Position numbers and translations under genes: made by a program. This document shows, one piece after another, positions 2,723 to 26,361 of a stretch of DNA of 38,953 bases. The stretch's first letter is position 1; each line of letters opens with the position of its first letter. Origin of the DNA: a virus (lineage: Duplodnaviria > Caudoviricetes); the IMG/VR virus record IMGVR_UViG_3300048838_001824, positions 1 to 38,953 of that record. The stretch is one strand, 5' to 3'. Below the pieces are notes generated by a model. That model saw nothing but the letters and a program-made list of their open reading frames with translations, did no database searches and had not been told where the DNA came from.

Positions 2723-2975
2723 CGTCGGCCTCCGGTGGTGCGTCGGCCGCAATGACTGGGAGGCCGAGGAAGGTCGAAGGCTCCAGCGTGCCGGTGCACT
2801 CGTGCAGCACCACGCGCGGGACGTAGAGCACCCCGCGCCCATCGATCATCAGCTCGCTCCGCCGCGCCGTCGGGCGCACTTCGACGGGGGCGATGCCATG
2901 CACCCGCTTGTGCTCTGCGACCAGCGTCCGAATCTCTCGGAAGACCGGCAGCTCCTGCGTCGTATCGTCAGACAT
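2712..2975 (-). CDS. Hypothetical protein
   Basis: 87 aa from ATG 2975 (MSDDTTQELPVFRE), filling the gap between coupled genes. Confidence 0.6.
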   Translation of the reverse strand: MSDDTTQELPVFREIRTLVAEHKRVHGIAPVEVRPTARRSELMIDGRGVLYVPRVVLHECTGTLEPSTFLGLPVIAADAPPEADDAD

Positions 2976-3846
2976 GGGGCACACTCGTCGGTGTCGCGTA
3001 GCCCAGATCCAGCATCCGCTGGATCTTCTCGCGCGTGAAGTCGAGCGCGTCGCCGAAGTCTTCGGGTGGGGCGACGACCGTGGACCGGATCGTCGCGTAG
3101 CCAGGGCGGTGATTCTTTGCGCGCAGGCTCGCGAGGTCCTCCTGGTAGACCTCGTTGAGCGTGATCGCCAACGAGCGCTTGGCGACATCCAGCGTGCGGC
3201 GCCATGGCCCCCTCGCTGGTGCGAGCGTCAACGGTGACGCGAGGTAGACCCAGAGCTCCTTCTCAGGGTCCGGGTGATCCTTCAGCCAGGTGACCGCCTC
3301 CTTGAGTGGGGTCTGGTCGCGCAGCCCACCGTCGATGTAGTGCCACCCGGCGATCGGTACCGGCGGGAAGTACACCGGCATGCTCGCGCTCGCGAGGATC
3401 GCGGCGTGCACGTACCGGCTGCTCCCGTCGAAGCGCGCGTACTCTCCCGACTCCAGCTCGACGGTGCCGCACGAGAAGTGTGCGCCGGCCGCGAGGCGCA
3501 TCGGGTCGATGTGCTGGCGGATCAGGGCGTCCAGCGGCGCGGGATCGAACAGGGCTGCGCCTCGGACGGCGCGCCACGCCATCGCGGGCCACCAGCGCGA
3601 GCCGCGGTAGATGTCTCCATTCCCCTGGATGCGTGCATAGATCTTCGTGGCGCGCCCGAGGAGTCGGTACTGCCCGCCCCGGGTCCGGCTCTGGGCACAC
3701 AGCGCCGCCGTGAGGTTGCCAGTCGAGACGCCGAACCACGCATCCCCATGCAGATCGGGGTGATCGTCGAAGGCGCGGCGGAGGGCGCCGACTTGGAAGG
3801 CACCCTTCACACCCCCGCCGCTCAGGACCATCGCACGGACCGTCAT
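2968..3846 (-). CDS. Patatin-like phospholipase
   Basis: Oxyanion loop LSGGGVKG, nucleophile elbow GVSTG, ASASMP and catalytic DGG are all intact. Confidence 0.93.
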   Translation of the reverse strand: MTVRAMVLSGGGVKGAFQVGALRRAFDDHPDLHGDAWFGVSTGNLTAALCAQSRTRGGQYRLLGRATKIYARIQGNGDIYRGSRWWPAMAWRAVRGAALFDPAPLDALIRQHIDPMRLAAGAHFSCGTVELESGEYARFDGSSRYVHAAILASASMPVYFPPVPIAGWHYIDGGLRDQTPLKEAVTWLKDHPDPEKELWVYLASPLTLAPARGPWRRTLDVAKRSLAITLNEVYQEDLASLRAKNHRPGYATIRSTVVAPPEDFGDALDFTREKIQRMLDLGYATPTSVPHV

Positions 3847-7659: not shown

Positions 7660-8130
7660 TTGGCTGACCGTGACACGCATCTCGCTATATGGCAACGTGT
7701 TAGGTCGCACCTCGAAGGGCGTGGCCTCGACAAGGCCCAGATCGCTCGGGAGACGGGTTTCCCTTACCCCACCGTGAACCGCTGGTGGAGCGAGCGACAC
7801 CTACCCGACCCGTCAGGGCTGCAATCGCTGATTGTTGTGTACGGCCTGAATGGGCATTGGGTGATGACGGGCGAGGGCAGCCCTGACGCGGCCGTGCAAC
7901 AGACTGTGGACAAGGCCGATATCGTCGGCTCAATGGCCTACCAGGCGGGCGGGCGGGCTGCGTTGGCGATGATGGCTGGGGAGATCGAGAAGGCAGTGGC
8001 CGTCGCAAAGAAGGCGTGGAGCGCGCCGGCGCCCGACCCGGACCAGCTGCGCCGCGTGCGCGACGCGGTGGACGTCGTCACCGAGATCCTCGACAAGCCG
8101 CAGACCAAGAAGGGGAGGAAGGCGGGGTGA
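7660..8130 (+). CDS. XRE-family HTH repressor (CI-like, no peptidase domain)
   Basis: LDKAQIARETGFPYPTVNRWWS...P...YGLNGHWVMTGEG. SD GAGGAGG lies 8 nt before the TTG, and the gene is divergent from the early operon. Confidence 0.85.
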   Translation: MADRDTHLAIWQRVRSHLEGRGLDKAQIARETGFPYPTVNRWWSERHLPDPSGLQSLIVVYGLNGHWVMTGEGSPDAAVQQTVDKADIVGSMAYQAGGRAALAMMAGEIEKAVAVAKKAWSAPAPDPDQLRRVRDAVDVVTEILDKPQTKKGRKAG

Positions 8131-8166
8131 GCTGGTGGTGCTACCGGCTCACCCCGCCCGACAGCA

Positions 8167-8685
8167 TTACCGTGTAACCGAGATCGCCCAGGTGATCGTT
8201 GTCGGGACGCTGAATGCCTGCCCACCCTGGGTGTAGTTGCATGGCATGAGGAGATTCCCGGTCAACTGGAGCTGCCCGTTGCTGAGTGACCCCGAAAAGC
8301 CCGTTGCACCGGCAAGCGCGACATTGCACCAGTTGAAGAGGTTCGCGAGCACTGCGTAGCTCTGGGCCGGAGACGCGGTAGGGTCACCCCACTGTGTGAT
8401 CGTGATTCCCCCGTCGGTCCGGATGACGCCGGCGATGGTGCCGCTACCACCGCCGTTCGCCACGACGTAGCTGCCGGTGAAGGCACCGCTGGATGTAGTG
8501 CTCCCAAGGGTGACCGTGATTCCCACCGCCTCCGCGAGATTTTCGACAGAGTTCTTGAACGCCATCGCGGTGCCACCTTGGTAGCTGCCGGCCACGTTCG
8601 GATAGGAATTGCTGGGTCCGCTGGGGCTGTCGCCGCCGCAAGCCGCCAAGGCGAGCAGCACTGCGGCGATCGGGACATATCGCAT
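8167..8685 (-). CDS. Lipoprotein (moron; beta-rich)
   Basis: MRYVPIAAVLLALAA|CGGDSPSGPS lipobox. SD GGAGG upstream and visibly lower GC than the flanks. Confidence 0.85.
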   Translation of the reverse strand: MRYVPIAAVLLALAACGGDSPSGPSNSYPNVAGSYQGGTAMAFKNSVENLAEAVGITVTLGSTTSSGAFTGSYVVANGGGSGTIAGVIRTDGGITITQWGDPTASPAQSYAVLANLFNWCNVALAGATGFSGSLSNGQLQLTGNLLMPCNYTQGGQAFSVPTTITWAISVTR

Positions 8686-8781
8686 TGGGGTTGCCTCCAT
8701 GAGGGTGTGCCTCAATTTTCAGCGGCTAGGAGCCGATTCGGCAAGTCCCTTGGCGAGGAAACCATTGAGGCCGATGACCCC

Positions 8782-9063
8782 ATGACCGTGACTTACCCGG
8801 TCCGAGTGCCGCGGAGTCCGAAGCGCGGGCAGTCGGCCCGCGCCAAGGCCGAACGCGCGCGATACAACGATGATGCCGAAGCGATCGAGCGGTACATCAA
8901 CGACGAGGTGAAGAACAAGGAGCCGGGTGAGTACATGATCCCCTACGCCTCGATCTCACACGTCGTCGGGCTCGACGACCTGCGCGTGATGCATCTGCTC
9001 GGCCGCCTCAGCGGAGGCGCGCACACCGCGATCACGGTGCGAGTCCCGTCACCAGCTGAGTGA
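8782..9063 (+). CDS. Hypothetical protein, possible winged-helix
   Basis: 93 aa from ATG 8782 with good codon bias. YASISHVVGLDDLRVMHLL looks HTH-like. Confidence 0.6.
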   Translation: MTVTYPVRVPRSPKRGQSARAKAERARYNDDAEAIERYINDEVKNKEPGEYMIPYASISHVVGLDDLRVMHLLGRLSGGAHTAITVRVPSPAE

Positions 9064-9083
9064 CTACTCCCAGCGACCAACCG

Positions 9084-9359
9084 TTACGCCCCCTCCACCC
9101 TGATCACTCGCAGCCCCCCCTCCGCCGGCGGGTCCATCGACTCTACGAGCTCAATGTGCCCGTCGGCTATTTCGTGCAGGAGCGCCCCGGTGGCCGCCCC
9201 GATCCCGAGCGGCCGCACCAGAATGAACCGCCGCTCAGGCGCCACGGCCGGATCATCTGGCCCGGTGTCCACGATGAAGTCCCCCCGCTTGGCACCCCAC
9301 TGCTTGGTCCATCGCCCCAGCGTCCTGACCTGGTAGGCCTGCCCACGCCGCTGCCGCAT
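9084..9359 (-). CDS. Hypothetical protein
   Basis: 91 aa from ATG 9359 with GAGGG upstream and its own promoter-like sequence. Confidence 0.55.
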   Translation of the reverse strand: MRQRRGQAYQVRTLGRWTKQWGAKRGDFIVDTGPDDPAVAPERRFILVRPLGIGAATGALLHEIADGHIELVESMDPPAEGGLRVIRVEGA

Positions 9360-9390
9360 CGCTGCCCTCGATTTCGGTTTCTGTTCGGTG

Positions 9391-9418
9391 ATTCTACCCC
9401 GGATTGGCAATCCCGCAA
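9391..9418 (-). promoter_or_regulatory. Putative promoter TTGCGG-N16-TAGAAT with internal palindrome GGATTG-N-CAATCC
   Basis: Hexamers at 9418-9413 and 9396-9391, with the palindrome at 9401-9413. Confidence 0.5.
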
Positions 9419-9492
9419 GAGGGCCACCGGGGACGGACCCGCGGAGGTTAGGGCTCGGGATTTCGGGCAACAACAGGTGGCGAGGCGGGGAA

Positions 9493-9508
9493 GTGGCAGA
9501 TCTGCCAC
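9493..9508 (-). terminator. Perfect 16-bp palindrome after the last late gene (possible terminator hairpin)
   Basis: GTGGCAGATCTGCCAC lies 4 nt past the TGA of 9513..10163, followed by only a two-U tail. Confidence 0.4.
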
Positions 9509-9512
9509 CTGG

Positions 9513-10163
9513 TCAGAAGAGGCGGAGGGACTTTCGGACGCCGAGACGGAGGGCTCGGCCGGTGGGTCCTTCTTCGACGCTCACGAACCATTCCCGGAGC
9601 GCGAGACCTGCCTCGGCGCGCACCCCACCGGCACCGACGCTGGCTTCCCCGAAGACCGCCACGCGCGGTGCATCGGCACCCCGGAGGGAAGCCGCTCGCT
9701 CGGCCGATTCCGCGATGTCTCCGAAGGCATCCGAGGCCGCAACGAGTGCTGGCCGAAGGGTGTCTGCAACCGCAGCGAGATCGCGCAAGCTGGCCCGCTG
9801 GCTGCCGAGAACGGCAGTCCCGGTATCGAGCGCCGTCCGTGCGGTCGTGAGGGCGCCAGCGAGGCTGTCGGCGCGCGCGACCCATTCGCCGCAGCCCGTT
9901 GGGATCGGACCGGCAGGGCGTGGCGGGATTGCCACCAACCGCTGCTCAAGTACATCCAGGAGCGAGTCTCGGACATGAGTCAGCCGCCTGATCGTATCCG
10001 CGCGGGCGGCCACCACCTCGAGCAGGGAATCGGCGGCGGGTAGGGTGGCAGCGATCAGCGCCTGGCCGAGCCGCGCCGAGCGCTCGACCTCTCCGAGCAC
10101 GCGCCAGAGCCGAACCACCTGGACGGCCGCGAGGACTACCGCCAGCGCCAGGACCCCGCCCAT
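9513..10163 (-). CDS. Spanin-like protein (N-terminal TM, coiled coils, C-terminal beta-strands)
   Basis: 216 aa from ATG 10163, directly after the endolysin. TM GGVLALAVVLAAVQVV, Ala/Leu heptads, a single Cys in a Pro-rich hinge, ending LGVRKSLRLF. Confidence 0.65.
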   Translation of the reverse strand: MGGVLALAVVLAAVQVVRLWRVLGEVERSARLGQALIAATLPAADSLLEVVAARADTIRRLTHVRDSLLDVLEQRLVAIPPRPAGPIPTGCGEWVARADSLAGALTTARTALDTGTAVLGSQRASLRDLAAVADTLRPALVAASDAFGDIAESAERAASLRGADAPRVAVFGEASVGAGGVRAEAGLALREWFVSVEEGPTGRALRLGVRKSLRLF

Positions 10164-10174
10164 CAGCCGCGGAC

Positions 10175-10690
10175 CTATGCGGCGTCGCGCCACAGGGCGA
10201 TCTCCCCCTCGCGTCGATTCGCGAGCCCGCGCGATCGGATTGGCGGCTGGCCGGTGTAGACCCAGCGGCGCATCTGGCCCGGGACCGCAGCGTAGTCGCC
10301 GGCGTTGAGCAAGCGCCGGAGGGTGCTTCGGTAGAACCCTCCCGGCTTGCTGGGGTCGGGTGAGCCCGGCCCGACGTTGAAGACGAACGACACCAGCGCG
10401 TCGAATTGGTGTTGGGTGAGCGGCACCGTCACCAGCTTGCGCACCGCTGCCTCGGCCCAATCGAGATCCTGATCGAGCAGCCGCATGGCCTGATCCTCCG
10501 TCAGGCCGCGCTCGCGCCACGCCACGACCTCCTCGCCGATCCGAAGCTGGCCCGTCCGCAGCTCCTCTTCGGTCAGCAGATGCCCGACGCCGATCGTCGG
10601 ATAGCCGCCTTGGTCGCGGTACATCATCAGCCGCAGTGCCTCGAGCTCGACCAGGCGATCGAGTCCGCGCCTAGAGATCGTCTGGGTCAC
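10175..10690 (-). CDS. Endolysin, GH24 (T4/P21-type) lysozyme
   Basis: E-x8-D-x5-T triad (EALRLMMYRDQGGYPTIGVGH), plus QFDALVSFVFNVG and GLANRREGE. Confidence 0.95.
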   Translation of the reverse strand: MTQTISRRGLDRLVELEALRLMMYRDQGGYPTIGVGHLLTEEELRTGQLRIGEEVVAWRERGLTEDQAMRLLDQDLDWAEAAVRKLVTVPLTQHQFDALVSFVFNVGPGSPDPSKPGGFYRSTLRRLLNAGDYAAVPGQMRRWVYTGQPPIRSRGLANRREGEIALWRDAA

Positions 10691-11018
10691 GGATCTCCCT
10701 GTAGCGCAGCGGGGAGGTGAAGGGCAGGGACGGTGCGGACGCGGCCACGCCGCGACTCACCTCGCCGACCATACGACTCTCAGCGAGCAGTCGCGCGCGA
10801 GAGATCGTGGCTCCCGCGATGAAGGCGAGGCCGGTCAGCGAGCCGTACCACGACCAGGCCGCGACCGAGATGGTCCAGATACCGGCGGCCGCGAGATCGA
10901 AGGCGACGATGCCGTTGAGGAACGCGACCGCGAGGATGGCCCACCCGAGATCGAGCTCGATCGTGCCGTCGCTCCGTTCGACGAAGAGCAGCCGGAAAAG
11001 AAGTCTGCGCGGGGTCAT
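10671..11018 (-). CDS. Putative holin
   Basis: 115 aa from ATG 11018 with two TM segments, immediately upstream of the endolysin. Confidence 0.6.
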   Translation of the reverse strand: MTPRRLLFRLLFVERSDGTIELDLGWAILAVAFLNGIVAFDLAAAGIWTISVAAWSWYGSLTGLAFIAGATISRARLLAESRMVGEVSRGVAASAPSLPFTSPLRYREIRDPDDL

Positions 11019-11254
11019 CCGACCTTCGTCTCCACGCGCACCATCCGCTCGCGGACGTCGGCCACGTCGTCTTCGACGCGGATGAACCGCGCCTGCACGT
11101 CGGCGTGGTGGGCATCGATCTTCGTCTCGATGCGCTTGACCGTGGCACGCGTGCCGTTGAGGGCGGCCTTCACGCCGCCCCATGCCGCACCAGCGGTAAG
11201 CGCGGGGAGGATGATGGTGACCAACACCTGCAACGTGGAAAGGTCCTGCATCAC
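11015..11254 (-). CDS. Small TM plus coiled-coil lysis-region protein (holin/antiholin-like)
   Basis: 79 aa with an N-terminal TM, ending ERMVRVETK, as is typical of small lysis-cassette membrane proteins. Confidence 0.65.
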   Translation of the reverse strand: MMQDLSTLQVLVTIILPALTAGAAWGGVKAALNGTRATVKRIETKIDAHHADVQARFIRVEDDVADVRERMVRVETKVG

Positions 11255-14200
11255 GGACTGACCTCCGCTCGGCCGAGACCGAGCCGGGTGAAGTGACTCC
11301 GCGCGGCCTTGACCGCGTCCTCGATCTGGGTGCGTTGCAACTCCTCGACCAGGCGCCGCCGCGCGGCCGATCCCGGCGGATACTCACTGGCCAGACGGGG
11401 GTCGGCGTCGAGTCCGGCATCGAGCTGTGCCGGAAGATCCGCGTACTCCGGTGACGATACGGAGGCCTCGACGACCGCGCGAAGGATCTGGCCCTCCTCA
11501 CGCAGGCGCCGCTCGAACTGTTGCGGTGATTCGTCGCCCTGACGCTTGCGGCGCGTGATCGTGACGCCCAGCCGCTGCAACTCCGCGGCGATCGGGTCGT
11601 CGGCCGTCCGATCGCGACGACTGTTGGTGAAGTCCAGGAGCGCAGCGGTCGCGCCACCGTCGCGTGTGATCGGTTCGCCGAAGCGATCAATCTTCGCCGG
11701 CAGCGTCTTCGAGAGGCCCGGGATGCGGGCCGTCACGGCGTCCACCACGCCTTCCGTCTCCCGCTGCACTGGATCCACCGCGCGCGCGACGGCGCCGACC
11801 ACCGATGGAACGGTCATGCCGGCCACGTTCTCGACGAACGACATCGCACCACGCGAGGGGTCGCGCACCGCATCGAGCGAACGATTCACGCCCTGGAGGA
11901 ACGATTGCTCCATCGCATACTTGCCGATGTCGCCAACCGCCTGCACACCGGCGAGTCCGGCGGCCGCGGTCGGGTCGAGCGGGTCGAGCTCCTCTCGCAA
12001 CGGATCGAGGTTCTCGCGCAGGTGGTGCACCAGCGACGCCCCGATCGCCATCAGGTTGCCGAGCGGGCTGATCCGCTCCATGGAGTACCACCGATCGCCG
12101 AGTCGGACCGCGTTGGGGATCTTGCCCTCGGCGGCCCACTGGTCACGCGTGCGCTGATCGGTCGGGAAGGTGCCGGTCATCCGGTCCTTCGAGGCGAGCA
12201 TCGCCCCTGCGACAATGGCGGTGCTGGAGCCGACGACCGACCGCCCGAGGCGATCGGCAATGCGACGCTGCTCGGCCAGCGCTGGAGCGCCCTGCATGGC
12301 CTTCTCGACCAACCGCCAGACATCCGGGATCGTGCCCAGCGCCCCGAGCGGTGAGTACTCGACCGTGCGACTGACCACGTTCGCGGGTGTCCGGACGAAG
12401 GGCATGAGGACCTCGCCCACTACGCGCCCAGTCGACCCACCACGGTCAGAGAGGACCCCCTTCGCGCGTGACCCGAGGTCCGCGAGGAGCCCGCGGTTCG
12501 TGAACGTGGCGACCTCCGCGTCGGCCATTGCCTGGAGCACCATGTCATCGGTGACGGACTTCGCGCCTTGGCGCAGGTCAGAGAGGTCCGCCACGCGCGC
12601 GGCGAGTGCGTCACCGGCGAGCCCCTCTCGCTTGGCAAGGAGCGTCGCCTGCTCGGTGAGGGAGCGCTGGAACGCGGCGCCATAGAAGATCCGGTCACCC
12701 GCCTGGAGCGCGCGGAAGACGGTCTTCGTGAACCCGTCGAGAATGGCGTTGTCGAAATTGGTCTCGCGCGAGAAGTCGTACTTCTGGAGCGCACCCTCGA
12801 TCGGCACGCCTTGCATCACGGCACGCGCCTCCTCGAGCCCACGCTTCGCGCCCGCGACTGAGGCGCGGACCTGAGCGGCAGGGTCGAAGTGCTTCGTCGC
12901 TTGTCCAGTGACACGCCCCTTGCTCACGACCTGCGCAAGTCGGATCAACATCCGGTCGACGAGCATCGCGGGCGCATCCTTGGCCGTCTCCAGCATGGCC
13001 ATCGAGGTGTTGCCCACGAGGTTCGCCAAGTGCGTCTTCGGCGCCGTCAGGAGGGCGGCCTTGAGTAGCGTCGTGCCCTTCTCGGCGAGGGTGGCCTCCC
13101 GCATCGCGGCCACCTGGCGCGCGAGGGCCTCCGCCTTCCCCTCGTTGGCGAGGCGCGTGATCGCCAGATGCTCGTCGCTGGTGAGCGGCCTTCCGGCCGT
13201 CTCCATCGCACGTGAGAGCCACACCGCAGGATCCGTGGTGCGCGCCGCGAGGATGCGCAACGCGGCCAGATCCCGTCCTGCCTCGGAGCGCTGCCGGATG
13301 AACATCCCGAGGTAGTGCTCCTGCTGCCGCTCCAGCGCCTGCACGCCGCGCTCGACGATCGCTCGCTGGTCCGGCGCGAGGGTGCGATCATCGAGTCGCT
13401 TGCGGCCCTCCGCGATGGCGTCCGCATTCGTCACGATGCGATTCCGCACCGCGAGCAACTTGTCGCGGCCGAGGCGCTCCCCGGCCTGCGGGGCGATGTC
13501 CTCCGGGTCGATGCCAAGCGAGCGCGCGATCACCGTCGCATGCGTCTCGCGCCCCTTCGGTGCAAGACCCTGAGTCGCGGCCACGCGCTGCACTTCCTCG
13601 CGCAGGACCGCCTCACCACTTGGGTCGAGCATCGCGCGGCGAAAGTTGAAGAACTCGTCCGCATCCACGTCGGCGGGATCGACGGCGCCGGACGTCGGCG
13701 TTGGCGCGGCCGGAGTCTCCGACGGCGGTTGCCAGCGACTCGGCGGCAGCTCGTAGGTGCGCGCCGGGGCAGCGACGGCAGCTCCGCGATCGGCGGGTCG
13801 ACGCACCAGTTGACCAGCAGCGTCCGCGCGATGGAGCAGTGCCTTGAGCCCCGCCTGTCCCAACGCGCCGGCGGTGAACCCGGTCGCGGCCCCACGGAGC
13901 GGGTTCTCCTCGTCGGCGACCATACCCGCCGTTGCACCGGCCGCACCACCGAGCAGGTTGTCGGAGGCTGCACGTACGGCGGCGGCCGGGAGCGGTGTCG
14001 GCAGGCCACCGAACAGCAGATCCTCCGTGCCCTCGGGCGGGGGCGGGAGTTCGCGCGTGTACGGCCCACCACTCTCGCCAAAGGCATAGGTCGGCCGACG
14101 GCCGATCTCGTCCGGATCGAGCGCATTGTAGCGCCCAGCCAGCTCCGCTTCGACGCGTTCGAGCTGCCGGTACACCTGATTGGCGCCCGCCTTCGCGCGC

Positions 14201-16287
14201 CCAAAGCGTGCGCCCTTCGCGATCCCGCTCCGCTGCTCGGCAACGTCGTCGTCGTACCGGGTCCATGGCGTGATCGAGTTCTGCTCCTCGAGCGCGAGCG
14301 CCTGATACTCGTCGGCCAGGCGCCGGTGCATCGCCTCCAATTCCTCGGTGCCGGTGCGCCGAAACTTCGCGTCGCCGCCCTCCCACGAGACGCGTCCCGC
14401 ACGCCGCACCTCGCGCACGGGCTGCACGTCCGGGAACATCAGATCGGCCGCATTGACGGCACCGGGTCCGGACCCTATCGTTTCGTCAGGTGAACGGCTC
14501 GTCGCTGGCCTCCCCGGCCCTCTTGCCGGATCGACGTCCAGGGAAGTCGTCTCACCGAGAGGTCGGCTCGTCGCGGGCGCCCCCGGCCGAACAGATGCCG
14601 GATCGGCCACCCGGGAAGTCGGCCCATCAACCTGACGCGTAACTCCAGGGACCCCCGGCAGATCCACAGCCGGATCGGTGACGGGAGCCGTCGGGGCCGG
14701 CCCCAGTGAGCCCTTCGAGGACTTGCTGGGGTCGTTGATGTCCAGGTCCCAGTAGAACACGCGTCGGGCCTGTGCGCCCTTCGGCGCTCGCTCCTCGGTC
14801 AGTGTCAGGCGGAACTGCTGCGGCTTACCATCAACCACCGCATCAGCGGTGAAGTAGTGGTACGCCTCGACGTTCGTCGTCGACCCCTTCCCGCGAGGAG
14901 GAACATCCAGCATCACGGGCTCGGCGTCCTCGATCAGCTCGTCGAGGACCCGCATCGCGGCCACCTTCTCGGGTGTGCTGCTGTGATGCCGCGCCTTTCC
15001 TATCGCCGACTTCCGGATCTCGGCCTTGAGGCCCGTCGCCTGATTGGTGAAGGCCTTTCCGCGTAGGGTCATCAAGTAGTCGCGCGCGCGATCGCGTGCC
15101 GCGGTCATGGCCTCTGGTGTATCCACCGGCCCGAACTCTGTGCGCGAGATCGTCCGACGATCGGGCGAGCTGCGCGGGAACGGGTCCGCAATCGGAGTCG
15201 GTTCCGGCGCGCGGGGTGCCTCGACCTCAGGGGCTGGCGCGCGACGCTGTGCGGCCTTGCCGACGTCCTGCTGAAACCGCGCGAGAGCATCGCGCACTGA
15301 GTTCGTCATCGGATATCGCAGCTCGTCGGGATCCTTCGCCGTGCGGGCGGCGCGCAGCAGCTCCTCGTCGTGCGCCTTCGCGAGGTCGAACGTCTCGCGG
15401 CTCTTGGCCTGCGCTGCTTCGCGCACGGCATCGCGTCGAGCGAGCACGGCAGCCACCTGATCGGAGAGCCGCTCGTCACTCGCCGCACTGGCCTTCGCGG
15501 TGGACTCGGCGGCGTCGAGGCGATCCATGCCGCCTCGGATCGCGGGCGTCTGCTCACGCATGCCATCCACTCGCGCACGCTCACCCGTGAGCACATCCTC
15601 ACGCAGTGCATCTGCACGAGCTCCGGCGCGCTTCGCACCGCGCTTGGCCAGCGCGCCCGCTGCCGCCTCCACCAAGCCGCCCGCGCCAGCGTCAAGCGCG
15701 AGCTCGAAGGCGAGTCGGCCGCCGGTATTGTCGGCCACCGCGCGCAGGCGATCACTATCGAGGAGCTCCGCGAAGTTCCCTGCGGCGGACTCCTCGCGCT
15801 GGATACCGGCCGCGAGATTGACTGGTGCATTGAGGACCAAATCGCGCGCGACCCGACCCTTTGCCGTCGCTGGTGCGGCGACCTTGGCAAGTCCTGGGAG
15901 CGACTTCGCGAAGGCGGGCAGCTTGGCGATGCGGTTCAGCAGACCACCAGGCGTGGCGAACTGCGCGGCGTCGCCAGCGAATCCGGCCGCACCCGCAGCC
16001 ACCTTCCCGGCAGTGGTCTCGCTGTCGCGGTAGAAGGCATCGGCCTCGTCGCGGCTGGTGCGCAGGCGATCCGCGGTGCCATCGGCGCCGACGAGATCGG
16101 CGAGACCGATGGCCGTCCGGTATCCCGAGCGCGCGAGGCCCCGGCCGACACCGCCGAGCACGTCGCGCACCACGCCGCGGCGTGGCGGGGAGGGAGGAGG
16201 CGCGAACTCCGCCTCGAGGTCATCCCACGATGACGCCGGAGCGGAGAAGTCGCGTTCCAAGTCGGACCACGAGAGCGGGGTCGTCAC
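11251..16287 (-). CDS. Large internal virion/ejection protein (polyvalent type; LPD3-like insert, LPD38-like C-terminal region)
   Basis: 1678 aa from GTG 16287. It is Ala/Gly-rich, carries PFVRTPAN and RIPGLSKTLPAKIDRFGEPI motifs, and has an FTNQATG..I.K...YHYF.A.AVVDGK domain. It is the last gene of the ejection cluster. Confidence 0.8.
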   Translation of the reverse strand: MTTPLSWSDLERDFSAPASSWDDLEAEFAPPPSPPRRGVVRDVLGGVGRGLARSGYRTAIGLADLVGADGTADRLRTSRDEADAFYRDSETTAGKVAAGAAGFAGDAAQFATPGGLLNRIAKLPAFAKSLPGLAKVAAPATAKGRVARDLVLNAPVNLAAGIQREESAAGNFAELLDSDRLRAVADNTGGRLAFELALDAGAGGLVEAAAGALAKRGAKRAGARADALREDVLTGERARVDGMREQTPAIRGGMDRLDAAESTAKASAASDERLSDQVAAVLARRDAVREAAQAKSRETFDLAKAHDEELLRAARTAKDPDELRYPMTNSVRDALARFQQDVGKAAQRRAPAPEVEAPRAPEPTPIADPFPRSSPDRRTISRTEFGPVDTPEAMTAARDRARDYLMTLRGKAFTNQATGLKAEIRKSAIGKARHHSSTPEKVAAMRVLDELIEDAEPVMLDVPPRGKGSTTNVEAYHYFTADAVVDGKPQQFRLTLTEERAPKGAQARRVFYWDLDINDPSKSSKGSLGPAPTAPVTDPAVDLPGVPGVTRQVDGPTSRVADPASVRPGAPATSRPLGETTSLDVDPARGPGRPATSRSPDETIGSGPGAVNAADLMFPDVQPVREVRRAGRVSWEGGDAKFRRTGTEELEAMHRRLADEYQALALEEQNSITPWTRYDDDVAEQRSGIAKGARFGRAKAGANQVYRQLERVEAELAGRYNALDPDEIGRRPTYAFGESGGPYTRELPPPPEGTEDLLFGGLPTPLPAAAVRAASDNLLGGAAGATAGMVADEENPLRGAATGFTAGALGQAGLKALLHRADAAGQLVRRPADRGAAVAAPARTYELPPSRWQPPSETPAAPTPTSGAVDPADVDADEFFNFRRAMLDPSGEAVLREEVQRVAATQGLAPKGRETHATVIARSLGIDPEDIAPQAGERLGRDKLLAVRNRIVTNADAIAEGRKRLDDRTLAPDQRAIVERGVQALERQQEHYLGMFIRQRSEAGRDLAALRILAARTTDPAVWLSRAMETAGRPLTSDEHLAITRLANEGKAEALARQVAAMREATLAEKGTTLLKAALLTAPKTHLANLVGNTSMAMLETAKDAPAMLVDRMLIRLAQVVSKGRVTGQATKHFDPAAQVRASVAGAKRGLEEARAVMQGVPIEGALQKYDFSRETNFDNAILDGFTKTVFRALQAGDRIFYGAAFQRSLTEQATLLAKREGLAGDALAARVADLSDLRQGAKSVTDDMVLQAMADAEVATFTNRGLLADLGSRAKGVLSDRGGSTGRVVGEVLMPFVRTPANVVSRTVEYSPLGALGTIPDVWRLVEKAMQGAPALAEQRRIADRLGRSVVGSSTAIVAGAMLASKDRMTGTFPTDQRTRDQWAAEGKIPNAVRLGDRWYSMERISPLGNLMAIGASLVHHLRENLDPLREELDPLDPTAAAGLAGVQAVGDIGKYAMEQSFLQGVNRSLDAVRDPSRGAMSFVENVAGMTVPSVVGAVARAVDPVQRETEGVVDAVTARIPGLSKTLPAKIDRFGEPITRDGGATAALLDFTNSRRDRTADDPIAAELQRLGVTITRRKRQGDESPQQFERRLREEGQILRAVVEASVSSPEYADLPAQLDAGLDADPRLASEYPPGSAARRRLVEELQRTQIEDAVKAARSHFTRLGLGRAEVSP

Positions 16288-16288
16288 G

Positions 16289-17182
16289 TCAGCGCACCTG
16301 CATCGCCTCGGCGCGCGCCTGCTCCGGGGGCACACCACGCGCTCGGAGCTCGCGATACTTGGCCGCTTGCGCCGGTGTCGGCGGAACGTCGAGTGCCGGA
16401 GCGGGGGCCGTATCCCCGTTGACTGGAGTTCGGGCCGGCGGCGCACCATTGCGCAGCTGATCAATCAGGCTGGCAACAGGACTGCCTCCACCGGCTGTGC
16501 CCTTCGGCGGTGCGCGCAGCGGCGACCCATCCGGGCGAGTGAGCGGTTCGGGTTGGCCGTTGACGACACGCCAGTACGATCCGTCCTCGGCCTGAATGAT
16601 CGAGCCCTGCGGCTCCGCGCGTGGCTGTGGCGGTGCGGCGAACCGTCGCTGCATGCGCTCGCGGTGCTCGATCTCTTCCAACGTACGCCGATGCTTGAGG
16701 TCGTCAGCTTCCGCGTCACGCGCCGCCTTCGCTGCCGCCGCACGGGCCGCCATCGCGTCCGGGGTGGCTTCGGTGTTGAGCAGCTTCCCCTCAACCCCGG
16801 GCACGGCGCGATGCCGGGCGATGTCACCCAGCGCACCAGAGGCGCGACTCAGCAGGTTCGTGCGGTGATCCTCGCCGAGGATCGGATCGAAGAGCGCCGA
16901 AGAAAGCTCGAGCCCGCCCATCGCCGCCCGCCCCTGAATGGGAGCGGCGTCGCGAAAGCCCGCGTCGTGCATCTGGATGGCACGATTCTCGGCGGCCACA
17001 CGCGCAGCCTCTTCTGCCGCCGAGGCTGCACGTGCCTCGCCCGCCTTCGCCAGGTCGAGACGCTCCTGCTCCATGCCGAAGCGCTTCTCGCGTTCGGCGC
17101 GCTCTTCGTCGTCCTGGCGCCGTCGCACAGCACCGCGCGACCAGCCTGCGGCCATCGGGAGGATTGCGTCGATCAGACTCAC
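16289..17182 (-). CDS. Putative ejection/internal virion protein
   Basis: 297 aa, helical and Ala/Arg-rich, positioned between ejection genes. Confidence 0.6.
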   Translation of the reverse strand: MSLIDAILPMAAGWSRGAVRRRQDDEERAEREKRFGMEQERLDLAKAGEARAASAAEEAARVAAENRAIQMHDAGFRDAAPIQGRAAMGGLELSSALFDPILGEDHRTNLLSRASGALGDIARHRAVPGVEGKLLNTEATPDAMAARAAAAKAARDAEADDLKHRRTLEEIEHRERMQRRFAAPPQPRAEPQGSIIQAEDGSYWRVVNGQPEPLTRPDGSPLRAPPKGTAGGGSPVASLIDQLRNGAPPARTPVNGDTAPAPALDVPPTPAQAAKYRELRARGVPPEQARAEAMQVR

Positions 17183-24217: not shown

Positions 24218-25582
24218 TCAGAGGCTCCGCAGTCGCACGGTGAACTGGCCGGGCACATCGCCGCGCCAGCAGAGGTGGTCATCGGGCGTCTGCCACAGAG
24301 TGAGACCAGTGGCGTCGGTCGTCGCGGCCCAAGAGGCTGACGCTCCGATTACCCCGACGCACTGTGTCGCCCCTGCCGGGCTGGTGAGGTTCGCCAGCAC
24401 GAGGGGCGCTGGCGGAATGACGAGCGCGAGCAGCCGCGGCACGTCCACGAGGCCGCGCCCATAGTCGGGATCGGGGCCAGCCACGCCACCATCCACCGCA
24501 CTCGCGTGCAACAGCGCCGTGATGCTGTCGAGGGTGAGCGCGGGCCGCAACTGCCGAAGCAATGCCACAACCCCGGCGACATGGGGGGATGCCATCGAGG
24601 TGCCGCTCTTGCTCCCCGTGCCGCCACTCGGCAACGAGGACACGATGCCAGAGCCGGGGGCCACGAGGTCGAGGTCGGGGTCGCGGTTGCTGTAGCTCGC
24701 GCGCCCGCCGCCGCTCGTCACCGCGCCCACGCTGATCACACGCGCGTAGCGCGCCGGGTAGAGCGCCGTCGCCCCGCCTGCATTGCCACTGGACGCCACC
24801 AGCACGCCCGCGGCGGCTTGGTACGCTTGGACGGTGAGCATCATGGCCCCCGTCGCCCCGCCACCAATCGAGGCGTTGACGACGAGGATGCCCTGCTCGC
24901 GTGCCCAGTTGAGCGCAGCGGCCTGCGTGCCACCCCATGCGAGGCAGTCGCCGTTGATGTCCTCGAACACCCGGAGCGCCACCAACTCGACGCCCGGTGC
25001 CACGCCATTGACGGACGATCCGACCGACCCCGCAACGTGCGTCCCATGCCCCTTGCATGGCGCGAACGTGTCGCCCCACGCCTCGGGGCCACCGTTGCTC
25101 GCCGGGAAGTTCCGGCCCGCGACCACGTTCAGGTGAGGGTGGTTCGGCATGATGCCGCTGTCCATGATGCCGACCTTGACGCCCGCGCCGGTGACGCCGC
25201 GATCCCACGCGCTGTCGGCGCCGATCATCGCGAGGTTCCACGGCAGCGCCATCGGCGCCGACAGATCACTCAGGCCAGCGAGCCCCGTGGAGTCAGGAAT
25301 GGGGAGCGAGGTCGTCGCATCGTACTCCGCATACACTGGGGCGGGCCGCAGCGCGCGCAGCGAGTCGAGGAGTCCTGGGCGGCCCGTGAAGGCCAGAACG
25401 GGCCCGTCTCGGAACGCCACCGCCATGCCCCAACGCTTCGCCGCCAGTAGCAGCTGCGCGGTGTCGCGCTCGGCCTCGAGCACGACCGCATAGCGCACCG
25501 TCGGCGCCTGGGCATCCAACGCCGTGACCGCGCCGGCCCCGAGGAGGAGCAGCAGCGACGCGGCGAGACGATCGGCGCGCAT
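24218..25582 (-). CDS. Secreted subtilisin-like serine protease (S8)
   Basis: From ATG 25582. Signal peptide MRADRLAASLLLLLGAGAVTALDA|Q, a prodomain, the triad MDSG / HGTHVAG / GTSMASPH, and oxyanion SSGN. Confidence 0.93.
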   Translation of the reverse strand: MRADRLAASLLLLLGAGAVTALDAQAPTVRYAVVLEAERDTAQLLLAAKRWGMAVAFRDGPVLAFTGRPGLLDSLRALRPAPVYAEYDATTSLPIPDSTGLAGLSDLSAPMALPWNLAMIGADSAWDRGVTGAGVKVGIMDSGIMPNHPHLNVVAGRNFPASNGGPEAWGDTFAPCKGHGTHVAGSVGSSVNGVAPGVELVALRVFEDINGDCLAWGGTQAAALNWAREQGILVVNASIGGGATGAMMLTVQAYQAAAGVLVASSGNAGGATALYPARYARVISVGAVTSGGGRASYSNRDPDLDLVAPGSGIVSSLPSGGTGSKSGTSMASPHVAGVVALLRQLRPALTLDSITALLHASAVDGGVAGPDPDYGRGLVDVPRLLALVIPPAPLVLANLTSPAGATQCVGVIGASASWAATTDATGLTLWQTPDDHLCWRGDVPGQFTVRLRSL

Positions 25583-25584
25583 GG

Positions 25585-26361
25585 TCACGGGTCCGTGGGA
25601 ACGACTGTGACCGTGATCGTCGTGATCGAGTCGACCACCGCGACAGGGGGAGCCTGATCGTTCCGCACGTACTTCCATCCCTTCGCCGCACTCCATGATG
25701 CGGAGGGAATGCCGGTCGGACTCAGATAGCGGAGGCGGGCGGTGTAGACGAGCGAGTCACCCACCTGCGGCTGCGGGGCCGACACCACGAAGGTGAGGCC
25801 ATCGGGCACCGGGATCGCTGTGCCGTTCGCGAAGACCTCCCAACGACAGTTCACCGCCCCGGGGACCAGCTTGCAGCCGCCCTGGCTACGGACGGCGGAG
25901 TCCGTCACGGAAGCCGTGACGACGATCGCATTCGGACTGGGTATCGGCATCGGCCGATCGACCGGTGGACGAGCAGCCGCACACGCGATGAGTGTGATGG
26001 CCGCGAGCAGGGGGAATGAGGATCGAAGGCCCATGGTTGGTCCCTTTGGTGTGGTGATGGGTGGAGTGCTCCGCCCCAGCCGGAAGGCGAGGGCGGCAGG
26101 TGCAGCGGCAGCACTGCCCCCGAGCGTCAGCAGGCCGAGGCCGGTCAGGAGGTCGGGGTGCGGTTCGCCGCCGATCCACCGGACAGCGAGGAGGATCAGG
26201 CCGGCCGACAGCGCCAGGGCGATCCGCTTGGCCCAGTCGCCAAGCTGGCGGACGAGGGCGACGCGTTGCAGCTGCGCGAAGAGCCACGAGGCCAGCGCCG
26301 CCGCGAGGGGGAGCTGCGCGTCGAGCAGCAGGTCACGGAGGGGAGCGAGGGCGTCCATCAC
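25585..26361 (-). CDS. Membrane protein with an in-frame internal lipoprotein (second start ATG 26034)
   Basis: N-terminal ~95 aa with about three hydrophobic helices, then AAAGGGA-ccaacc-ATG and MGLRSSFPLLAAITLIA|C lipobox, then a beta-rich Fn3/Ig-like domain. Confidence 0.7.
   Translation of the reverse strand: MMDALAPLRDLLLDAQLPLAAALASWLFAQLQRVALVRQLGDWAKRIALALSAGLILLAVRWIGGEPHPDLLTGLGLLTLGGSAAAAPAALAFRLGRSTPPITTPKGPTMGLRSSFPLLAAITLIACAAARPPVDRPMPIPSPNAIVVTASVTDSAVRSQGGCKLVPGAVNCRWEVFANGTAIPVPDGLTFVVSAPQPQVGDSLVYTARLRYLSPTGIPSASWSAAKGWKYVRNDQAPPVAVVDSITTITVTVVPTDP

What the first reader, a model, noticed from the sequence alone, without database searches (positions are those of the whole stretch)
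9513..10163. Candidate new single-protein spanin anchored in the outer membrane by C-terminal beta-strands
Seen: the gene after the endolysin has an N-terminal TM helix, two long Ala/Leu coiled-coil segments split by a Pro-rich hinge with one Cys (PPRPAGPIPTGCGEW), and about four amphipathic strands (VAVFGEASVG / GVRAEAGLAL / EWFVSVEEG / ALRLGVRKSLRLF) ending in Phe. I found no embedded or downstream lipobox ORF. Known: Rz-type i-spanins need an Rz1 lipoprotein, T1 gp11 u-spanins have the opposite polarity, and coiled coil plus four strands plus terminal Phe is the trimeric-autotransporter/Bam-signal layout. Inference: this protein may bridge the inner and outer membranes alone through an oligomeric beta-barrel. 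Similar C-termini may exist in Bacteroidota phage lysis genes, so novelty needs checking.
Basis: partly seen in the sequence, partly recalled or inferred. Interest (0 to 1): 0.75.

Follow-up and report, generated by a model that had tools for sequence, protein, structure and literature searches.

The report
One-piece spanin with beta-strand outer anchor
The gene that follows the cell-wall-cutting enzyme in this prophage encodes a protein with a greasy helix at one end, two long coiled coils and four predicted outer-membrane-type beta-strands at the other end, with no lipid-anchored partner gene in the cassette, so it likely pulls the two bacterial membranes together on its own and would be a third, lipid-free type of the outer-membrane-breaking 'spanin' proteins.

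Summary
Confirmed, with corrections. The gene likely starts 30 bases earlier (GTG 10193, 226 aa, basic N-terminus). Six full-length family members (33-48% identity to the query, one from a Gemmatimonadales assembly) keep the helix, coiled coil, Pro/Cys hinge, coiled coil and terminal Phe. AlphaFold2 with them gives four C-terminal strands at pLDDT 53-65, with one greasy and one polar face. The layout mirrors lambda Rz plus a beta anchor. No lipobox lies in the cassette; the nearest lipoprotein starts 828 bases downstream, beyond two other genes. Against: 5 of 6 lack the canonical beta-signal, the N-terminal helix might be cleaved, and no homolog's neighbourhood could be fetched. Best reading (0.5): a one-protein spanin held in the inner membrane by a helix and in the outer membrane by oligomerising strands. 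I found no paper on it in 8 searches; this scan reported the same architecture before on other DNA. New here: a Gemmatimonadota family, and look-alikes beside the amidase of two cultured 'spanin-less' Croceibacter phages, one single-chain and one split.

The parts
9513..10193 (-).
   Evidence: homologs
10202..10209 (-). Ribosome-binding site AGGGGGAG, 8 bases before the GTG, inside the endolysin gene
10107..10163 (-). Residues 11-29: hydrophobic helix preceded by 4 Arg; predicted inner-membrane anchor (N-in, C-out); cleavage not excluded
9930..10106 (-). Residues 30-88: coiled coil 1
9891..9929 (-). Residues 89-101: Pro-rich hinge ending in the invariant Cys101 (P90, P93, P96, C101 invariant in 6 of 6)
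9687..9890 (-). Residues 102-169: coiled coil 2
9516..9662 (-). Residues 178-226: four predicted amphipathic beta-strands ending in Phe; predicted outer-membrane anchor
10175..10690 (-). Endolysin, phage lysozyme PF00959 (E 4.9e-35), no signal anchor seen
10671..11018 (-). 115-aa protein with two hydrophobic stretches, holin candidate (no family hit)
11015..11251 (-). 78-aa protein, one hydrophobic stretch and a basic coiled-coil tail; holin or antiholin candidate (weak phrog_689 holin, E 0.0055 over 19 residues)
9084..9359 (-). Next gene downstream: 91 aa, no Cys, no signal, no Pfam hit; not an o-spanin
8167..8685 (-). 172-aa lipoprotein (LAAC lipobox), beta-rich, no C-terminal helix; the only possible separated o-spanin nearby, more likely an accessory gene beside the repressor

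Best explanation
This is the last large gene of a holin-endolysin cassette in a prophage that likely infects Gemmatimonadales, and its protein is likely a one-piece spanin, predicted to sit in the inner membrane by an uncleaved N-terminal helix and in the outer membrane by four C-terminal beta-strands that would oligomerise into a small barrel. Steps: (shown) gene position, overlap with the endolysin, domain order, family conservation, no cassette lipoprotein. (Predicted) two long helices split by a Pro/Cys hinge, and a four-strand meander with one greasy and one polar face. (Inferred) Sec inserts the helix N-in; the stalk (127 helical plus 21 non-helical residues, about 19-26 nm) is threaded through the peptidoglycan; the host Bam machine inserts the strands while the chain stays tethered; several chains close a barrel (trimer by precedent, even number if Cys101 forms homotypic disulfides). 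(Inferred) Once the endolysin removes the wall, coiled coil 1 and coiled coil 2 zip into an antiparallel hairpin about the hinge, bring the helix and the barrel side by side and fuse or tear the two membranes, as proposed for lambda Rz-Rz1.
For: Follows and overlaps a lysozyme gene, behind two membrane-protein genes. Anatomy matches lambda Rz as given in PMC5295617 (passages: TMD 1-24, CC1 27-87, hinge 89-120 with C99, CC2 121-150; complex 25.5 nm): here 11-29, 30-88, 89-101 with C101, 102-169. Weak PHROG hits to the Rz-like family phrog_89 in 2 of 4 homologs scanned at E<=0.05 (P0006 E 0.0033, residues 4-85 on profile 3-85; P0005 E 0.014). Coiled coil 1 has the same length in 5 of 6 members and the hinge in 6 of 6. 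In the hairpin register lipid-face residues average KD 2.1-2.8 and lumen-face residues -1.0 to -1.8 in the 5 alignable members, with F181 facing invariant G196 in 5 of 5 and an aromatic residue facing G218 in 2 of 5 (the aromatic-Gly pair as a barrel motif is recalled knowledge). P0007 keeps the stalk but carries a different tail that ends in a canonical beta-signal, so the Phe-ended strand tail outlasts its sequence. No lipobox in the cassette, whereas the same kind of scan finds one within 1.5 kb in 63 of 79 loci of related lysozymes and a helix-plus-strand gene in 0 of 79. The helix-plus-strand filter hits 1 of 169 ORFs of the window, this gene, and 4 of 931 ORFs in 11 other phage genomes, one being a true outer-membrane barrel protein of lambda (its name Lom is recalled). 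The model's best structural matches are fold-back coiled-coil hairpins (1qu7 Z 10.2, rmsd 3.8, 162 aligned), showing the monomer model is already folded back. Host has an outer membrane: homolog P0003 (45%) and the nearest named capsid protein (79%) come from Gemmatimonadales assemblies. Look-alikes directly after the amidase in P2559Y (single chain) and P2559S (split), both listed as spanin-less in PMC6139136 Table 10.
Against: No function shown. Strand confidence is low (pLDDT 53-65) and vanishes without the alignment. Query amphipathy alone is within chance (220 of 2000). 5 of 6 members lack the canonical C-terminal beta-signal; K/H/R221 sits on the lipid face; strand 3 has only three lipid-facing residues. 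A small-x-Ala motif ends at the invariant A22 in 5 of 6, so signal-peptidase cleavage is possible. A lipoprotein lies 828 bases downstream, inside the ~1 kb that PMC6139136 accepted, with doubts, for B40-8. No detectable homology to lambda Rz (hhalign probability 0.1%), to P2559Y gp23 (1.1%) or to the P2559S ORF (0.4%); phrog_89 hits may reflect coiled-coil bias. The filter was tuned on the query family and the two Croceibacter genes. Only 2 of 11 spanin-less phages checked carry such a gene. No homolog's neighbourhood was seen other than a 100%-identical copy.
Confidence: 0.5

Rival explanations
1. The N-terminal segment is a cleaved signal peptide, so the mature protein hangs only from the outer membrane: either the outer half of a lipoprotein-free two-part spanin (as the P2559S pair appears to be) or a small autotransporter-like surface or periplasmic rod.
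For: Basic n-region, short hydrophobic core in P0006 (15 residues), small-x-Ala ending at invariant A22 in 5 of 6. The split layout exists in P2559S.
Against: P0007 has no such motif and ends its helix in LLLLW; the query and P0005/P0008 stay hydrophobic to residue 26-29. The only single-helix coiled-coil neighbour (11015-11251) has its basic residues after the helix, which points its coil to the cytoplasm. The chain already holds two length-matched coils and a hinge.
Confidence: 0.15
2. One-protein spanin, but the strands are not a pre-assembled Bam barrel: they stay folded or loosely bound in the periplasm and insert into the outer membrane only at lysis, like a fusion loop or a self-inserting pore.
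For: Non-canonical C-terminal signal in 5 of 6, a basic residue on the lipid face, short third strand. Inserting a barrel while tethered to the inner membrane is mechanically awkward (inference).
Against: Strict two-faced pattern, aromatic-Gly pairs and terminal Phe in 6 of 6; canonical signal in P0007; all six fit the relaxed hydrophobic-x5-hydrophobic-x-hydrophobic signal of PMC10945584, though that motif is loose.
Confidence: 0.14
3. An ordinary i-spanin with a soluble C-terminal beta-domain that docks on a separated o-spanin, the lipoprotein at 8167-8685 (or the one at 25585-26031).
For: Rz-like anatomy and weak phrog_89 hits; a clean lipobox 828 bases downstream on the same strand; ~1 kb separation was accepted once, for B40-8.
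Against: Two genes, one on the opposite strand, lie between; the lipoprotein sits beside the repressor, is 172 aa and beta-rich; the curator's own note doubts the B40-8 pair (supplement row); a soluble four-strand domain would not need one wholly greasy face and a terminal Phe.
Confidence: 0.12
4. Not a lysis protein: an envelope accessory (superinfection exclusion, receptor masking or envelope tether) that happens to follow the endolysin.
For: No significant family hit in Pfam, PHROGs or NCBIfam; no homolog context seen.
Against: Start codon and ribosome-binding site lie inside the endolysin gene, which couples the two; the cassette has no other spanin; look-alikes hold the same slot in P2559S and P2559Y.
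Confidence: 0.09

Closest known systems
Lambda Rz i-spanin of the two-component spanin Rz-Rz1 (PMC5295617, passages; PMC6139136, passages)
   Same: Last gene slot of the lysis cassette; N-terminal helix, coiled coil ending at residue 87-88, hinge with a Cys near residue 100, second coiled coil; similar total span.
   Different: Second coil is 68 rather than 30 residues, is followed by four strands, and no Rz1-type lipoprotein is present; no detectable sequence homology, no PF03245 hit.
Unimolecular spanin, phage T1 gp11 (PMC6139136, passages)
   Same: One chain that would link both membranes.
   Different: Opposite polarity: gp11 has an N-terminal lipobox, a beta-rich stalk, a C-terminal helix and no periplasmic Cys (0 of 58 u-spanins); this has an N-terminal helix, a helical stalk, one invariant Cys and a strand anchor.
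Trimeric autotransporter adhesin anchors such as UpaG (PMC5670179, passages)
   Same: Coiled coil followed by four C-terminal strands and a terminal aromatic residue; Atlas structure row 1 is a cluster automatically named YadA-like anchor, TM 0.47 over 49 residues (below the bar).
   Different: Autotransporters have a cleaved signal, thread three helices through the pore and display the coil outside; here the lumen face carries R, E and F, the coil would stay periplasmic, and no PF03895 hit appears.
Croceibacter phage P2559Y gp23 and the P2559S gp29 plus overlapping longer gp30; uncharacterised, listed as spanin-less
   Same: Directly after the endolysin; N-terminal hydrophobic segment and C-terminal amphipathic strands with a near-terminal aromatic residue.
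   Different: gp23 has a beta-rich stalk; P2559S is split in two; homology not detected.
DUF6549 (PF20186) proteins of Bacteroides phages, e.g. B124-14 ORF016 and the B40-8 'i-spanin'
   Same: Same slot, N-terminal helix and coiled coil; language-model neighbours of the query include DUF6549- and DUF6550-named viral clusters (scores 0.87-0.92).
   Different: They end without an aromatic strand signal and carry a basic-aromatic loop instead; the query has no PF20186 or PF20647 hit.

Membership tests
Two-component spanin (Rz/Rz1 type) | i-spanin: N-terminal TM helix, N-in C-out, periplasmic coiled coils, in the lysis cassette | tested here: met
   cleavage of the helix not excluded
Two-component spanin (Rz/Rz1 type) | Embedded, overlapping or adjacent o-spanin lipoprotein | tested here: not met
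   six-frame scan; next gene has no Cys or signal; nearest lipoprotein 828 bases away beyond two genes
Two-component spanin (Rz/Rz1 type) | Periplasmic Cys for homotypic disulfide near the junction | tested here: inconclusive
   C101 invariant in 6 of 6 at the hinge; bond not testable
Two-component spanin (Rz/Rz1 type) | Sequence homology to Rz families | tested here: inconclusive
   phrog_89 E 0.4 query, 0.0033 and 0.014 in two homologs; hhalign to lambda Rz 0.1%
Unimolecular spanin (T1 gp11 type) | N-terminal lipobox | tested here: not met
   no Cys before residue 101 in the query; only P0006 has an early Cys, after A-R-A
Unimolecular spanin (T1 gp11 type) | C-terminal TM helix and beta-rich, Cys-free stalk | tested here: not met
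   no second hydrophobic helix (next best KD 1.0-1.6); helical stalk with Cys
Spanin (functional class) | Needed for outer-membrane disruption; complements lambda Rz-Rz1 loss | not testable with these tools
   bench test
Trimeric autotransporter anchor | Four C-terminal amphipathic strands per chain after a helix | tested here: inconclusive
   predicted at pLDDT 53-65; amphipathy beyond shuffles in 4 of 6 members at <=85 of 2000
Trimeric autotransporter anchor | Trimer closing a 12-stranded barrel with helices in the pore | tested here: inconclusive
   lumen face charged and bulky; no fold match at E<=0.001 in PDB or BFVD, where the long helices dominate the search
Trimeric autotransporter anchor | Cleaved signal peptide and surface passenger | not testable with these tools
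   SignalP and DeepTMHMM not available; motif check ambiguous
Bam substrate | Canonical C-terminal beta-signal polar-x-G-x-x-hydrophobic-x-hydrophobic (PMC10945584) | tested here: not met
   0 of 1 for the query, 1 of 6 in the family at the C-terminus (P0007); 6 of 6 fit the looser nine-residue form; the paper notes many substrates lack the canonical form
DUF6549 / DUF6808 | Pfam match PF20186 or PF20647 | tested here: not met
   B124-14 ORF016 rang PF20186 at E 8.6e-29 as a positive case; PF20647 rang nowhere, so its absence is weak

The most novel reading that the evidence does not exclude
A third spanin type: a single chain with an integral anchor in each membrane, an alpha-helix inside and an oligomeric beta-barrel outside, built like a class I fusogen with a hinge between two length-matched coils. 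The outer anchor is a swappable module (two different tails on one stalk within this family), the design also occurs split in two genes, and it fills the spanin slot in cultured phages that were listed as spanin-less.
Probability: 0.45. Interest if true: 0.8.

Novelty: new variant of a known kind. Interest (0 to 1): 0.62.

Why it matters
Both spanin types described in PMC6139136 reach the outer membrane through a lipoprotein, and about 13% of the phage genomes surveyed there had no spanin; the authors name 'an OMP could act as an o-spanin' only as an untested possibility (section 15). A helix-plus-barrel spanin would explain part of that gap, extend lysis biology to Gemmatimonadota, and give a minimal single-chain bacterial membrane-fusion machine with two protein anchors. 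It would also test whether Bam can insert a barrel that is still tethered to the inner membrane. P2559Y and P2559S are cultured on a named host, so the idea can be tested in a native system as well as by lambda complementation.

Tried and rejected
Trimer prediction of residues 140-226 with the 6-row alignment: no answer, score 0.01 against a mark of 0.42; not used as evidence either way; dimer and tetramer could not be run. Single-sequence AlphaFold2 gave low-confidence helices at the C-terminus. Foldseek on PDB and BFVD: 0 matches at E<=0.001; VIA rows cover residues 3-175 only and Z<=11.5 is common for helical rods; PDB sequence search best E 0.061. Homolog neighbourhoods: IMG/VR scans gave only an identical copy or nothing; GTDB scans nothing; metagenome scans nothing; annotated phages no match; two related phage contigs found by capsid protein are 12-17 kb fragments, and the one searched (G003) has no match. 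A Gemmatimonadota genome survey could not be set up. Sequencing runs: none was listed. The first strand filter used greedy windows, missed the query itself and was replaced; its shuffle numbers are not used. The loose filter gave 4 off-target hits besides the query's own copy. Overlapping plus-strand ORFs 9060-10043 and 9388-9978 were rejected as shadows: the minus frame has the homologs. Promoter scan found 0 sites and one terminator-like site at chance level. Literature searches that returned no paper on a helix-plus-barrel spanin among the rows listed: 30 of 32 listed; 25 of 181 listed; judged from listings only, and most subscription journals are not in the library.

Full report
Setting. 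The window is a provirus record, 54% complete by CheckV, with terminase, P22-like portal, capsid, a 1737-aa internal virion protein, a RecE-like exonuclease, repressor and DnaB. The nearest named capsid relative (79%) and the only named homologs of the finding come from Gemmatimonadales assemblies, so the host likely has an outer membrane (diderm status of this phylum is recalled knowledge); weaker capsid relatives carry other labels. On the minus strand, two small membrane-protein genes (11015-11251, 10671-11018) precede a lysozyme (10175-10690, PF00959 E 4.9e-35), followed by the candidate.

The gene. An in-frame GTG at 10193 lies 8 bases behind AGGGGGAG and adds four Arg before the hydrophobic stretch; homolog P0005 begins the same way. 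I take 9513-10193, 226 aa, as the gene; it overlaps the endolysin by 19 bases. A search of 1.84 billion representatives gave 5 proteins at E<=0.001, the query among them; cluster look-ups added full-length P0003 and P0008. The six full-length members (five clusters) are 221-226 aa and 33-48% identical to the query, with P90, P93, P96, C101, W104, G187, G196 and F226 among the invariant residues. No Pfam or NCBIfam family fits the query; PHROGs gives only phrog_89 'Rz-like spanin' at E 0.4, and 0.0033 and 0.014 for P0006 and P0005.

Anatomy. AlphaFold2 with the six rows gives helix 6-88, a loop, helix 102-169 and strands 178-187, 190-199, 202-209, 212-219; pLDDT is 81-95 over most of the helices and 53-65 in the strands. 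Without the alignment the tail was helical at pLDDT 42-54. Each member has one hydrophobic segment at the N-terminus and no second. Coiled coil 1 has the same length in 5 of 6 and the hinge in 6 of 6. Lambda Rz has TMD 1-24, CC1 27-87, a hinge 89-120 that holds C99 and tolerates Gly-Ser replacement, and CC2 121-150, and Rz plus Rz1 span an estimated 25.5 nm (PMC5295617, passages). The candidate repeats this plan with a longer second coil; 127 helical and 21 non-helical residues give about 19-26 nm (my arithmetic). Direct homology to lambda Rz was not detected. The model's best structural matches are fold-back coiled-coil hairpins, which tells only that the model is folded back, the state a fusogen would end in.

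The tail. Reading the two hairpins in register puts V178, V180, G182, A184, V186, V191, A193, A195, L197, L199, W202, V204, V206, L215, L217, V219, K221, L223 and L225 on one face (mean KD 2.1-2.8 in the five alignable members) and mostly R, E, S and G on the other (-1.0 to -1.8); the register was read from the query, so this is partly circular. F181 faces G196 in 5 of 5; position 203 is aromatic opposite G218 in 2 of 5. An unbiased shuffle test gave 220 of 2000 for the query, 12-85 for four homologs and 1055 for P0007. The canonical beta-signal (PMC10945584, passages) is present at the C-terminus only in P0007; the other five end in L/F/I-R-L-F with a basic residue where a hydrophobic one is expected, fitting only the looser signal. 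P0007 matches the query over residues 5-172 only, so one stalk carries two different Phe-ended strand tails.

Partner search. Of 8 lipobox-like motifs in six frames of 8000-11300, one is credible: a 172-aa beta-rich lipoprotein starting at 8685, 828 bases after the candidate's stop, beyond a 91-aa Cys-free gene and an opposite-strand gene, next to the repressor. A second lipoprotein lies in the tail region (25585-26031). As a control, 63 of 79 IMG/VR loci of related lysozymes have a lipobox-like ORF within 1.5 kb (a noisy filter) and 0 of 79 a helix-plus-strand gene. PMC6139136 accepted a 1-kb separation once, for B40-8, and the curator's note in its supplement doubts that pair. I could not see any homolog's neighbourhood except an identical copy.

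Beyond the family. I examined 11 of the phages that PMC6139136 Table 10 lists as spanin-less. In P2559Y the gene after the amidase encodes an N-terminal helix, a beta-rich stalk and four amphipathic strands. In P2559S a helix-plus-coil gene is overlapped by an ORF, longer than the annotated gp30, with a signal-like N-terminus, a coil and strands ending in Trp: a split form. Neither is detectably homologous to the query. B124-14 has a DUF6549 gene in the slot, without an aromatic end. The other eight (RM378, KHP30, IN93, P23-45, A-4L, Petty, BA3, phiKT) gave no convincing case: with lambda, SPP1 and crAss001 added, the filter hit 4 of 931 ORFs, one a genuine lambda outer-membrane barrel protein and three that by reading are unrelated; I did not map the endolysins in these genomes. 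The filter was tuned on the query family and the two Croceibacter genes, and hits 1 of 169 ORFs in the window, 1 of 68 in P2559S and 2 of 57 in P2559Y. Language-model neighbours of the query are unnamed viral clusters, some labelled DUF6549, DUF6550 or DUF6808 at low share: leads only.

Mechanism. Most likely the helix stays in the inner membrane, the strands of several chains form a small outer-membrane barrel, and the stalk waits in the wall mesh until the endolysin frees it to fold back at the hinge and join the membranes (0.5). Known four-strand-per-chain anchors are trimers (PMC5670179, passages), while one Cys per chain favours pairs, as in Rz; the number is open. Rivals are a cleaved signal (0.15), insertion only at lysis (0.14), a distant lipoprotein partner (0.12) and a non-lysis role (0.09).

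Novelty. It works like a spanin but fails the membership tests of both described types. PMC6139136 (passages, section 15 in full, supplement rows) and PMC12596118 (passages) know only lipoprotein-based types; the cationic peptide route of phiKT was seen as a search listing only (10.1101/515445). Eight searches listed no paper on a helix-plus-barrel spanin; bioRxiv supplements and most subscription journals could not be seen. This scan has noted the same architecture several times in other lineages, unreviewed, with no sequence look-alike to this protein; I did not test those families. Verdict: new variant of a known kind, interest 0.62; 0.8 if complementation and outer-membrane assembly are shown.

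Noticed in passing
L126:27508-28065 (Croceibacter phage P2559S, JQ867099): Annotated gp30 is the last 79 aa of a 185-aa ORF that overlaps gp29, with a signal-like N-terminus, coiled coil and strands ending in Trp: a candidate two-gene spanin whose outer partner is a strand-anchored protein, in a phage listed as spanin-less.
   Followed up: partly
L133:22998-23621 (Croceibacter phage P2559Y gp23): Single-chain look-alike after the amidase with a beta-rich stalk; matches phrog_25644 (E 9e-11, unknown function).
   Followed up: partly
L124:6765-7370, L127:2483-3049, L128:2489-3076, L129:1047-1661, L130:2450-3094: DUF6549-type genes close Bacteroides phage lysis cassettes (122 records matched) and share a basic-aromatic loop near the C-terminus (R/K-F-L/W-x-F) that could be a membrane-inserting tip: another possible lipoprotein-free spanin.
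   Followed up: no
window 24218-26031 (-): An S8 subtilase gene (E 3.2e-46) preceded by a lipoprotein gene sits among the virion genes.
   Followed up: no
window 2968-3846 (-): Patatin-like phospholipase (E 3.8e-25) in the early region, about 5.7 kb from the lysis cassette; an earlier scan note links such lipases to lysis elsewhere.
   Followed up: no
window 8167-8685 (-) and 8782-9063 (+): A beta-rich lipoprotein of no known family and a small opposite-strand gene lie between the lysis cassette and the repressor; likely accessory genes expressed in the lysogen.
   Followed up: partly
window 9084-9359 (-): Unannotated-looking 91-aa gene with a good ribosome-binding site and GC3 0.86, no Pfam hit.
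   Followed up: partly
window 11251-16464 (-): 1737-aa internal virion protein carrying an LPD3 polyvalent-protein domain (E 2.2e-15).
   Followed up: no
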